DNA of 64,000 nt. It comes from Bryobacterales bacterium. GTDB taxonomy: Bacteria > Acidobacteriota > Terriglobia > Bryobacterales > UBA6623. Position numbers: made by a program. Positions 24,001 through 27,000 of the stretch are shown here, piece by piece. How positions within the stretch are numbered: position 1 is the first letter of the stretch; each line of letters begins with the position of its first letter. The stretch lies in contig OZ252030.1 in assembly GCA_965247305.1 (NCBI GenBank), forward strand, positions 253,262-317,261, written 5' to 3'.

Positions 24001-27000
24001 TGTGCAAGAAATCGAAGAATTAGTTCGACAAGGGGTGAGCCTCGCCAAGATCAGCGAGCTCACGGGATTTGACCGCAAGACGGTTCGCAAGTACTTAAGG
24101 CAGGACGATCCGACGCCCAGATACGGCCCGCGCAAGCCGCGTCCGTCCAAGCTGGATCGCTTCAAGCCGTTTATCGAAGACCGCCTCAAGGCCGGCGTCT
24201 GGAATGCCGTCGTGCTGTTGCGTGAGCTGCGAGAACACGGCTACTCGGGCGGCTATACGATCCTCAAGGATCACCTACAGCCGTTGCGAGAAGCCGCAAC
24301 CACGGTGGCCGTGCGGCGCTTTGAAACACCCGCAGGCAAACAGGCTCAGGTCGATTGGGGCCATCTCGGCGAGATCACCGCCGACGGCAAGACTCGCAAG
24401 CTTTGGGGTTTCGTCTTCACGCTCGGTCACAGCCGGGCCATCATGGCCGCCGCGGCGACCGACCAGAAGCTGCCGACGCTGCTGCGCATGCACGAGGAAG
24501 CCTTCCGGCAACTCGGCGGCGTGCCGCAAGAGATCCTCTACGACCGCATGAAGACGGTCTTGGAGGGGGTCGACGAGCGCGGCGAGCTCAAGTGGAATCA
24601 AACCTTCAAGGACTTCGCCGACTATTGGGGCTTCACCCCGCGGGCCTGCAAACCTTACCGCGCGCAGACCAAGGGCAAGGTCGAATCGGGCGTCAAGTAC
24701 GTGCGCCGCAACTTCCTGTGCGGACGCACGGCGACGAGCCTGGATGATCTCAACAACCAGCTGCACGCTTGGGTCTGGGAGGTCTCGAACCGGCGCGTTC
24801 ACGGCACCACTCACAGCCAAGTGTTAGAGAGTTGGGAGTCTGAAAAGACCGCCTTGCAGTCTCTCGACAAGCGTCCGCCGTATCCCCTCGCGGACGCCGA
24901 GTCGAGGCGTGTGAGCCGGGACGCCTTCGTGGCCTGGCGCTCCAACCGCTACTCGGTTCCCTGGCAAGACGCCGGCGCCGAAGTCTCGTTGCGCGAACTG
25001 GCCGGCCGGCTCGAGGTATGGCGCGGAGCCGAGCGGATCGCCGTTCACGAGTTGATCGACGACCGCCACCAAATCGTTGTTCGCAAAGAGCATCATGCCG
25101 ACATTCCGCTGCACGTCGCCAAGCGTCCAGGAGGAAAAACGTGCATTCACATCCAAGCCGGCGCACCCCAAGTCGAAGTGCGGCCGCTAGCGGCTTACGA
25201 AAGCGCCGCCGCCGGAGGTGCGCTGTGACCGCCATCGAACAGCTTCACGAACGGCTCGAAGCACTGGGGCTGAAGACCATCGACGATCGCTTGGAAGCGC
25301 TGCTTGAACAAGCAGCCAAGGCTGAACCGGCCTACGCCGACTTCCTGCTCGACGTCGTCAGCGCCGAGGCCGACGCTCGCCGACAACGCTATCTCAAGAC
25401 GCGTCTACAGCTCGCGCATCTGCCCTATGTCAAGACTTTCGAACAGTTCGACTTCGACTTTCAACCATCGATCGACGAGCGCCAAATCCAAGAGCTGCGC
25501 ACGTTGCGCTTCGTGCACGAAGCCTCCAACGTGATCTTCCTCGGGCCACCCGGCGTTGGCAAGACGCATCTCTCGGTTGCCTTGGCCGAGGCTGCGATCC
25601 AAGCCGGTTTCGGAGCCTACTTCATCACCGCGCACGACTTGATCGCCGATCTGTCGAAGGCCATCCGCGAAGGACGGCTACAACGAAGGATGCGCATCTA
25701 CCTCGCGCCGAAGGTGCTGATCGTCGACGAGATGGGTTACCTTCCGCTCGACGAGCTGGGGGCGACGATCTTCTTCCAACTCGTCAGCGCGCGTTACGAA
25801 CGCGGCAGCATCATCCTGACCTCGAACAAGAGCTACGCCGATTGGGGCTCGATCTTTTCCGACCCGATCATCGCCACGGCGATCCTGGATCGACTGTTGC
25901 ATCACTCGACGACGGTGAACATTCGCGGCGAGAGCTTTCGCTTGAAGGAGCGCCGAAGAGCCGGTTTGCTCTCGCGGCCGGAAGATCAGTCCGGCGAACG
26001 GCCGACGGTCGATGCGGCTGACGCGGCGAGCCCTGGTCGCAAGAGCGGGGGAAGTGGAAGATGAGTTTTTTCAGGCATGGGCAAATCTATCGATCCGATG
26101 GGCGTTGGGCAGCGGAAAAGAAGCCGGGAGCGATCTCGGCCGCCGCTCCCGGCACTCATCGTCTCGCTGAGTTTGCGGCCGGGTATTCCTTGGCGGGTTG
26201 CTCTCCAGCATTGCCCGCCTCCGCTTCCCCGGCTAGCTCCATGCTTAGCAACACGGTGGTGGTCCACAAAACCACCACCGCAACCAGGGTGGGGAATTTT
26301 CAACCGGCGAAAACGGGATTTTTCATCCGGCCTTGACACATCGGCTGAATGCTCTGGATCGCGCGACGTTCTCTAATATCGAACATCAGGATCTTGAGTA
26401 TCTGAAATACACACTCACGCCTGATCTAGTGGCGTACGAACAGGCTGTCGAGGCGGCATTCCTGTCGCCTGAAGAGCGCCAGCGTTTCTTTGTGAAACAT
26501 AACGTCGATGCCTTGCTTCGTGGCGACTTCAAGACCCGGATGGAGGGTCTTTCCATCGCGGTTCACGGCGGACTGAATACGGTTAACGAAGGCCGCGCGA
26601 AGCTCGACCTTGAAGCGCTGGAGGGTGGCGATAAGTCGCTTGTTCCGCTGAATCTCGGTCCTGTTGATTCGATTGGCGAAGAGATCGACGAGCCGGGCGA
26701 TTCAGAGGATCAGACGGAAGAGAATCTAGTGTAGTGCGCCATAAATAATGTAACTTATAGTATCTTCGTGTCGCCTTTACTAGTAGAAGGCACACGGATG
26801 CGAAGAGCAGAGCCAGTCCCATTGACGCAGGAGCAGCGTAGGCAGTTGGAGCGCTACGCGAACGGTCGTCGGGTCGCTGTTCGTCTGGCGTTGCGAGCCA
26901 GGATCATCGTGCTCGCCGCCGACGGTCTTGAGAACAAACGGATTGCCGCGCAGCTGTCGGTCTCGCGTCAGTTGGTGGCGCGCTGGCGAAGCCGTTTTCT

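What a model noticed while it worked through the whole genome (the two positions that open the first line are those of the whole stretch)
26063..26236. New structured antisense RNA motif shared by IS3 and IS21 elements
A ~175-nt multi-helix motif lies directly behind the transposase genes of two unrelated IS families (about 80 IS3 and 42 IS21 copies here) and is conserved in the same place in other bacteria. Covariation supports the fold and G-U pairs favour the strand opposite to the transposase; it matches no Rfam family, so it is a new transposon-borne structured RNA that has moved between IS families.
Evidence so far: 125 BLAST hits, shared core between IS3 (e.g. 122092-122247) and IS21. 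No Rfam hit below E 0.95 among 4227 families. 70 metagenome loci; of 66 with upstream DNA, 55 have an IS3 and 3 an IS21 istB gene upstream in the same orientation; 11 of 60 class genomes match. On 30 distinct sequences 96.5% of cells pair, 7 pairs and 39 cells change on both sides (0 of 500 shuffles as high for cells; slid controls 21-44% paired), all one-sided changes are G-U on this strand. Searches 189, 194.
(Added by a program. Inside this text positions count along the whole contig: contig position 253,262 is position 1 of the stretch shown here. "Call 12" and the like, gene names such as g00115 and contig names such as C1 are that model's own, and its searches are not shown. The text may have been shortened before it was handed on; [...] marks where a part breaks off. 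The agent that wrote the report below was given it as the finding of a first reader that could run no searches.)

Follow-up and report, generated by a model that had tools for sequence, protein, structure and literature searches.

The report
Two-part docking RNA of mobile elements
Insertion sequences of at least seven families, some plasmids and gene-less mini-elements carry an uncatalogued module: a predicted small structured RNA with its own promoter-like signal and a separate matching site that it is predicted to grip by one helix and two pseudoknot pairings, likely to help start copying the element's DNA.

Summary
Confirmed, and larger than reported. The stretch is one module of a family with two parts. 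Part A is a ~120-nt structured RNA on the minus strand here; a sigma-70-like promoter sits at a fixed distance before it across the family, and a hairpin plus U-tract often follows. B lies after A, before A, on the opposite strand, or twice as an inverted pair. The module sits beside IS3, IS21, IS110, ISL3, IS256, IS481-like and IS6 genes in all four orientations, on plasmids, and alone in transposase-free MITE-like elements, so it is not an obligate antisense RNA. No Rfam match; no description found in ten paper searches; the scan's notes held nothing on it. Best guess (0.35): A docks on B in single-stranded DNA and primes second-strand synthesis during copy-out transposition and plasmid replication. 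Rival (0.3): an RNA-RNA switch. Expression and function are untested.

The parts
23887..26338 (+). Host IS21 element (TGT...ACA ends, 4-bp target duplication), inserted in a prophage portal gene
   Evidence: 38 full-length copies
24002..25228 (+). istA transposase
   Evidence: Pfam rve and Mu-transpos_C_2
25225..26064 (+). istB ATPase; its stop codon overlaps the end of part B
   Evidence: Pfam IstB_IS21
26264..26269 (-). Predicted -35 box of the A promoter (weak match, 17-nt spacer)
   Evidence: family peak at spacer 16-18; this copy is below the threshold of the consensus scan
26241..26246 (-). Predicted -10 box of the A promoter; start site predicted near 26234
   Evidence: positional peak across the family
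26114..26234 (-). Part A: predicted small RNA (core, pairing arm, hairpin, U-rich tract)
   Evidence: z -3.8
26178..26233 (-). Core of A: outer helix P1 (26228-26233 with 26178-26183), conserved purine strand 26220-26227, helix P2 (26214-26219 with 26192-26197), helix P3 and the 4-nt purine loop 26203-26206
   Evidence: covariation against tree null
26203..26205 (-). Loop triplet of A, pairs with 26063-26065 (pseudoknot PK2)
   Evidence: 88 of 91 and 84 of 89 complementary
26185..26190 (-). PK1 strand of A, pairs with 26073-26078
   Evidence: matched variants across subtypes
26155..26177 (-). Pairing arm of A (helix P4, 5' side)
   Evidence: duplex test
26114..26153 (-). Terminator-like hairpin and U-rich tract between A and B
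   Evidence: 75 of 179 loci on this strand against 6 on the other; not called by the consensus scan
26063..26100 (-). Part B: arm (26080-26100), PK1 strand (26073-26078), A-rich linker (26066-26072), PK2 triplet (26063-26065)
26061..26336 (+). 91-codon open frame across the module, overlapping the istB stop; likely a by-product, possibly translated

Best explanation
The module is a predicted small structured RNA (A) and a separate cognate site (B) with covarying complementarity, and A likely docks on B in single-stranded DNA of its own element, where it would serve as, or deliver, the primer for second-strand synthesis. Shown by sequence comparison: the fold of A, its strand, the promoter signal before it, the three A-B pairings, and the free placement of B. 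Inferred: that A is transcribed and ends near the hairpin/U-tract; that B acts as DNA; that the A-B hybrid is trimmed to a 3' end (for example by RNase H) and extended by a host polymerase when a strand is displaced in copy-out transposition or plasmid replication.
For: A is an RNA gene by three signals that were not in the search patterns: -10/-35 peaks, G-U and tetraloop bias, hairpin plus U-tract. B keeps all three pairings when it is on the opposite strand (22 loci), before A (3) or present twice (7 after dropping one chance hit) among 249 cores; in the divergent position 30 B-like tails match the loop and 3 do not. No -10 peak lies before B, in cis (187) or not in cis (32). B-A-B stands alone between ISL3-like ends with 8-bp duplications and no transposase (L240, L174), where there is no gene to silence. 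Two inverted B copies, one per strand, occur on three plasmids (L271, L290 around repL; L294), as with ssiA/ssiB of RSF1010 (PMC4434180, passages). Assigned hosts are mostly families with circular intermediates: IS3, IS21, IS110, ISL3, IS256 (list in 10.1101/2023.06.07.543989, passages), plus Rep_1 replicons. The IS630 and IS21 copies elsewhere in this window show no core.
Against: No expression or activity data. On three of four Rep_1/RepL replicons the B next to A is on the strand opposite to rep, which does not fit a simple displaced-strand rule (two of these have a second B on the rep strand). Both B copies on L271 and L290 have a -10-like hexamer 6-9 nt upstream, and B on L270 is followed by a terminator-like hairpin, which fit B being RNA; a symmetric divergent promoter could serve the short divergent loci. 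An A-rich strand in a minor groove is an RNA-type contact (general knowledge). In 179 of 249 cores B simply follows A and one transcript could hold both. Most copy-out ISs have no such module (no match in 5,426 E. coli genomes for one subtype-II query; a second IS21 family with 70 copies here lacks it). All 76 IS3-type cores here carry an uncompensated PK1 mismatch, yet the element is abundant. IS6 and one Y1 transposase locus are not copy-out hosts. The host list was built with references from my own clusters, and 101 of 249 cores have no assigned gene.
Confidence: 0.35

Rival explanations
1. A and B are both RNA. They fold as one double-pseudoknot transcript or as a two-piece complex and act as a switch on the transcript that B heads (termination, read-through, 3'-end protection), so tuning antisense or sense transcription of transposase and rep genes and thus copy number.
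For: A then B on one strand in 179 of 249 cores; luteovirus-like geometry of PK2 on the RNA strand (recalled); -10-like boxes before B on L271 and L290; hairpin after B in 33 of 93 subtype-II loci; antisense position is the commonest (84 of 148); the abundant IS3 here has a weakened PK1.
Against: No promoter peak before B; hairpin/U-tract between A and B in 75 of 179; four orientations to the gene and gene-less MITE-like elements.
Confidence: 0.3
2. A is a ribozyme or catalytic guide that cuts or joins its B strand (RNA or single-stranded DNA), in cis or in trans.
For: Compact core of invariant unpaired purines with an A.G/G.A swap (two branches only); substrate-like docking by three pairings; permuted and split forms.
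Against: No match to any Rfam ribozyme; no conserved junction or insertion signature at B was found.
Confidence: 0.12
3. The whole fold forms in single-stranded DNA as an sso/Frpo-like signal and A is not a stable RNA.
For: Hosts have single-stranded or replicative intermediates; position on a Rep_1 plasmid.
Against: In 22 loci B is on the other strand and cannot fold in cis; UNCG loops 16 against 1, promoter and U-tract signals point to RNA.
Confidence: 0.1
4. An RNA-only addiction pair: a B-containing RNA is harmful and A neutralises it, which stabilises the element.
For: Carried by unrelated mobile elements and plasmids; orphan B sites are at chance level in this genome (3, against 0-11 for control triplets).
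Against: No conserved toxin frame or ribosome-binding signal in B; 17 cores with full flanks have no B, several of them interrupted; no B promoter.
Confidence: 0.08
5. The conserved unit is the small protein read on the plus strand.
For: In the GAG-triplet group 37 of 57 loci keep one frame, with 15 distinct lengths against 6 and 6; 41 of 47 in-frame loci are open; 117 predicted homologues.
Against: No frame bias in the other subtype-I loci (11 of 32) and little in subtype II (39 of 89); several fourfold-degenerate sites are invariant; changes follow base pairing; split and inverted forms break the frame.
Confidence: 0.05

Closest known systems
IS antisense RNAs RNA-OUT (IS10) and art200 (IS200)
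   Same: Small RNA with its own promoter inside an IS, often on the strand opposite to the transposase (PMC4513863, passages).
   Different: Those cover the 5' end of the transposase mRNA and block ribosome binding; each belongs to one IS. A lies at either end in either orientation, is shared by many families and has a dedicated partner site.
Single-strand initiation signals: ssiA/ssiB of RSF1010, Frpo of F, sso of rolling-circle plasmids
   Same: Short cis sites on mobile replicons; one site per strand in RSF1010 (PMC4434180, passages); an RNA-DNA duplex primes the complementary strand (PMC7690428, passages).
   Different: There a primase or RNA polymerase makes the primer on the single strand. 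Here a pre-made structured RNA would find the site by base pairing. Priming is not shown.
ColE1 RNA II / RNA I
   Same: Structured RNA as primer precursor; loop pairings; G-rich run near the hybrid (recalled).
   Different: RNA II hybridises to its own template as it is made and RNA I is fully complementary; A and B are only partly complementary and freely placed. No Rfam match.
IS110 bridge RNA / IS1111 seekRNA
   Same: Structured IS-encoded RNA whose loops pair with the element's own nucleic acid (recalled); 27 modules lie beside IS110 genes.
   Different: A's internal loops are near-invariant and covary only with B, not with targets or ends; A also serves DDE families and plasmids.
Plasmid motifs ARRPOF, GEBRO, PAGEV and the 'mobile/repeat sequence candidates' of Breaker-lab screens
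   Same: Covarying motifs on mobile DNA with a suspected replication or mobility role, RNA or ssDNA (PMC5737381 and PMC11109978, passages).
   Different: No Rfam hit. The one candidate described in the main text of PMC11109978 is a single long stem; the supplement with 250 such candidates could not be read.

Membership tests
Any Rfam 15 family | Covariance-model match | tested here: not met
   window best E 3.5; 20 subtype-II loci, no hit on the motif below E 1; 12 further loci, none at gathering score
IS cis-antisense RNA (RNA-OUT, art200) | Complementary to the 5' end / ribosome-binding site of the transposase mRNA | tested here: not met
   begins at the 3' end of istB here; four orientations over 148 loci
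IS cis-antisense RNA (RNA-OUT, art200) | Own promoter inside the IS | tested here: met
   predicted from positional -10/-35 peaks; not measured
IS cis-antisense RNA (RNA-OUT, art200) | Represses transposase expression | not testable with these tools
   needs reporter assays
ssi / sso / Frpo | Cis site on mobile replicons with single-stranded or replicative intermediates | tested here: met
   host list and plasmids
ssi / sso / Frpo | Lies on the displaced strand | tested here: inconclusive
   B on the rep strand in L270, on the other in L151, on both in L271 and L290; nick strands not determined
ssi / sso / Frpo | Promoter boxes inside a single-strand hairpin, or a primase site | tested here: not met
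   the -10/-35 boxes lie outside the conserved helices, upstream of P1
ssi / sso / Frpo | Primes complementary-strand synthesis | not testable with these tools
   needs an ssi rescue or in vitro priming assay
IS110 bridge RNA / seekRNA | Guide loops that vary with target and donor ends | tested here: not met
   internal loops near-invariant across families; the variable triplet covaries with B only
IS110 bridge RNA / seekRNA | Restricted to IS110-family recombinases | tested here: not met
   27 of 148 assigned loci are IS110
H-type pseudoknot (luteovirus / preQ1-I geometry) | Hairpin loop pairs with a 3' strand that follows an A-rich linker | tested here: met
   3-bp loop pairing after three A residues; linker 7 nt with the 6-bp P2, 5 nt with the 3-bp P2; the comparison itself is recalled
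Known self-cleaving ribozymes | Class consensus and topology | tested here: not met
   no Rfam match; topology compared from memory with HDV, twister, hammerhead and glmS
Small protein gene | Conserved frame with synonymous variation | tested here: not met
   frame kept in one subgroup only; invariant degenerate sites

The most novel reading that the evidence does not exclude
A is a sequence-specific RNA primer, or priming ribozyme, that recognises its own element's single-stranded DNA through a pseudoknotted RNA-DNA dock, and unrelated copy-out insertion sequences, MITEs and plasmids have each picked it up to finish the replication step that host proteins are thought to carry out.
Probability: 0.3. 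Interest if true: 0.95.

Novelty: categorically new. Interest (0 to 1): 0.8.

Why it matters
[quoted passage not shown] Under any of the readings this is a widespread, unannotated RNA class that crosses IS families, has natural one-piece, split and permuted forms, and carries a reprogrammable 3-nt code. It also explains a family of 'hypothetical proteins' and long transposase C-termini as the reverse strand of an RNA gene, and gives unrelated ISs a shared sequence through which they recombine.

Tried and rejected
Expression: no RNA run holds the window's stretch beyond a 0.04 share. Four soil/sediment metatranscriptomes laid as contigs hold relatives of the core, but most contigs run on past the predicted start; three of 151-207 nt begin near it. 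Contigs give no strand or ends, so this is no evidence either way. No second look at reads was obtained. Frameshift signal at the T-run (26065-26072): the heptamer is not conserved. Second promoter for B: no peak. B as the end of its own mobile unit: no target duplication at B-B ends. Orphan B sites in this genome: chance level. Plasmid, phage and E. coli collections: four plasmids carry it, all other hits were chance-level. The first viral pattern gave three chance hits. Model R1 had a mis-registered P1 and was not used; R2 models P1 poorly for subtype II. Prevalence: 5 of 251 genomes around a Planctomycetota genome (strict pattern), 2 of 150 around a Bacteroidota one and 12 of 150 around a Desulfobacteria one (model), each count including the centre genome. 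Papers: ten searches listed no description; passages only were read of nine papers; sequence words were not found in the searchable supplements of PMC8040213 (two files not searched) and PMC8632094 (one small file); the supplement of PMC11109978 could not be read and may hold this motif. Earlier notes of the scan did not bear on the motif.

Full report
Observation. The stretch begins at the istB stop codon of an IS21 (23887-26338) that sits in a prophage portal gene. The genome has 125 BLAST hits: 42 in the IS21, 75 in one IS3 and 8 others; a covariance model finds 124. Rfam gives nothing. A weak hit (L016) led to a second subtype, about 7200 metagenome stretches estimated. All these loci were found with patterns from the core, which fix several positions; the tests below rest mainly on positions outside the patterns.

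Structure. On the minus strand the core is an outer helix P1, a conserved purine strand, helices P2 and P3 and a 4-nt purine loop. PK2 joins three loop bases (26203-26205) to the triplet at the far end (26063-26065). It is complementary in 88 of 91 subtype-I loci (117 examined, 26 without a parsed tail) and 84 of 89 subtype-II loci (120 examined), with three to four variants in each subtype; two more variants turned up on plasmids and in model hits. Against a tree-based null of 150 simulated alignments that I wrote, the PK2 pairs have E<0.01 and 0.033 in subtype I (78 rows) and E<0.01 and 0.107 in subtype II (82 rows). PK1 (26185-26190 with 26073-26078) is nearly fixed within each subtype and changes in step between subtypes and in two further loci. 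The A-rich linker between PK1 and PK2 is 7 nt when P2 has 6 pairs and 5 nt when it has 3; this is the geometry of an H-type pseudoknot as I recall it from luteoviruses and preQ1-I. Two unpaired purines swap A.G for G.A (two branches).

Strand and gene signals. Non-Watson-Crick pairs are G-U on the minus strand 100 times against 14 in the first six pairs of P1 (116 sequences), 40 against 0 at one subtype-II position (114), but 24 against 25 in P2. The variable part folds better on the minus strand in 151 of 179, with UNCG loops 16 against 1. A TAnnnT hexamer lies 12-24 nt from the core on the minus strand in 44 of 107 and 82 of 112 loci, against 6-13 in other windows of equal size, and TTG-like hexamers peak 16-18 nt further up. 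This puts the start at P1. The window's own promoter is a weak match that the consensus scan does not call. A hairpin with a U-rich tract lies between the core and the tail in 75 of 179 loci, against 6 on the other strand.

Two parts. Among 249 distinct cores the tail B follows A in 179, lies upstream on the opposite strand in 22, precedes A in 3, is present twice in 8 (7 after dropping L005, a chance hit without an arm) and was not found in 37 (17 with full flanks). In the divergent position 30 B-like tails match the loop and 3 do not. The arm of B pairs with the arm of A better than both controls in 172 of 184 cis cases and 23 of 29 others. Non-simple layouts need at least 8 and 9 changes on trees of A (short sequences, weak trees). 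Paired B copies differ in the linker but keep the pairing sites. No -10 peak precedes B, though the B copies on two AT-rich plasmids have -10-like hexamers 6-9 nt upstream.

Hosts. Of 249 cores 148 have an assigned mobile-element gene: IS3 66, IS110 27, IS21 15, a DDE-ExeA-AAA_25 element 14, ISL3 9, IS481-like 9, IS256 3, IS6 3, Rep_1 1, group II intron 1. A is behind the gene and antisense in 84, behind it on the same strand in 40, in front and divergent in 16, in front on the same strand in 8. Four plasmids carry it: a 2.4-kb Rep_1 plasmid, two repL plasmids where two inverted B copies flank repL, and a 102-kb plasmid with B-A-B in a 1-kb intergenic region. L240 is a 318-bp element with 25-bp terminal repeats, an 8-bp duplication and only B-A-B inside; L174 has the same layout (read by eye) and L262 is its relative at another site. 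The ends resemble the ISL3 ends among my loci. In this genome one copy is IS3 on the left and IS21 on the right with the crossover in the core (an assembly error is not excluded), one core lies before a Y1 transposase gene, and the 76 IS3-type cores carry an uncompensated PK1 mismatch.

Protein reading. A 91-codon frame crosses the module and has 117 predicted homologues. The frame is kept in 37 of 57 GAG-triplet loci but not in the rest (11 of 32; subtype II 39 of 89), and several degenerate sites are invariant. The constraint is on nucleotides. The frame bias in the Acidobacterial IS3 group is real and unexplained; translation across the reverse strand of A may be favoured there.

Mechanism. 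Position and orientation do not matter, a gene is not needed, and B is kept once per strand in MITE-like elements and plasmids. That points to a cis function at the DNA. The main hosts form circles and are thought to move by copy-out/paste-in (10.1101/2023.06.07.543989, passages), where replication turns the figure-eight into a double-stranded circle (PMC7780238, passages). I therefore commit to A docking on single-stranded B and priming the second strand, working like ssi/Frpo signals (PMC4434180, PMC7690428, passages) without being one (0.35). An RNA-RNA switch is close behind (0.3): B follows A in most loci, the contacts look like RNA, and the strand of B on plasmids does not follow a simple rule. 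A ribozyme (0.12), an all-DNA signal (0.1), an RNA addiction pair (0.08) and a peptide (0.05) remain. Recalled, from no call: the pseudoknot comparisons, bridge-RNA and ColE1 features, RepL as a small-plasmid initiator, AAA_25 as the family of RSF1010 RepA.

Novelty. No Rfam family and no description in ten paper searches; the library lacks most subscription papers, and the supplement of PMC11109978 with 250 mobile/repeat candidates could not be read, so an earlier unnamed sighting is possible. The scan's own notes held nothing on this motif. Expression is not shown. Interest 0.8.

Noticed in passing
window 19710-26734: Prophage head module (terminase, portal) broken by an IS630 (21662-22777) and by the IS21 inside the portal gene; a second IS630 copy at 26768-27883 has a premature stop.
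   Followed up: partly
whole genome: Heavy IS load: 118 IS630 copies, 70 copies of a second IS21 family without the module, 69 full IS3 and 38 full IS21 with it.
   Followed up: partly
window 30960-36143: 1727-aa frame with RHS/YD-like repeats and a distinct C-terminal part, probably a polymorphic toxin-type protein.
   Followed up: no
contig 734061-735635 (L292): Hybrid element, IS3 left part with IS21 right end, crossover inside the shared core; no reciprocal product seen.
   Followed up: partly
contig 7817200-7818130 (L293): A diverged core with a degenerate B directly before a Y1 (IS200-like/RAYT) transposase gene that is flanked by pyrimidine/purine-run repeats.
   Followed up: partly
many subtype-II loci, e.g. 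L016, L155, L190, L199: A G-run plus G/C hairpin directly after B in 33 of 93 cis and 8 of 15 divergent subtype-II loci; could favour an R-loop or protect a 3' end.
   Followed up: partly
L142, L179, L053: Group II intron ends or reverse transcriptase genes right beside or inside the module.
   Followed up: no
L150, L157, L167, L187, L189, L221, L228: An element with ExeA-like AAA_22 and AAA_25 genes followed by the module on the same strand; related loci L043 and L159 have a DDE transposase and DUF6431.
   Followed up: partly
L148, L285, L287: Module near DUF932 and ArdC-N genes, which I recall from plasmid leading regions.
   Followed up: no
L294:2790-2880: A second, diverged A-like core with its own terminator downstream of the B-A-B unit on the Termitidicoccus plasmid.
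   Followed up: no
window 26252-26283: Short inverted repeat over the predicted -35 box, between the module and the right IS end.
   Followed up: no
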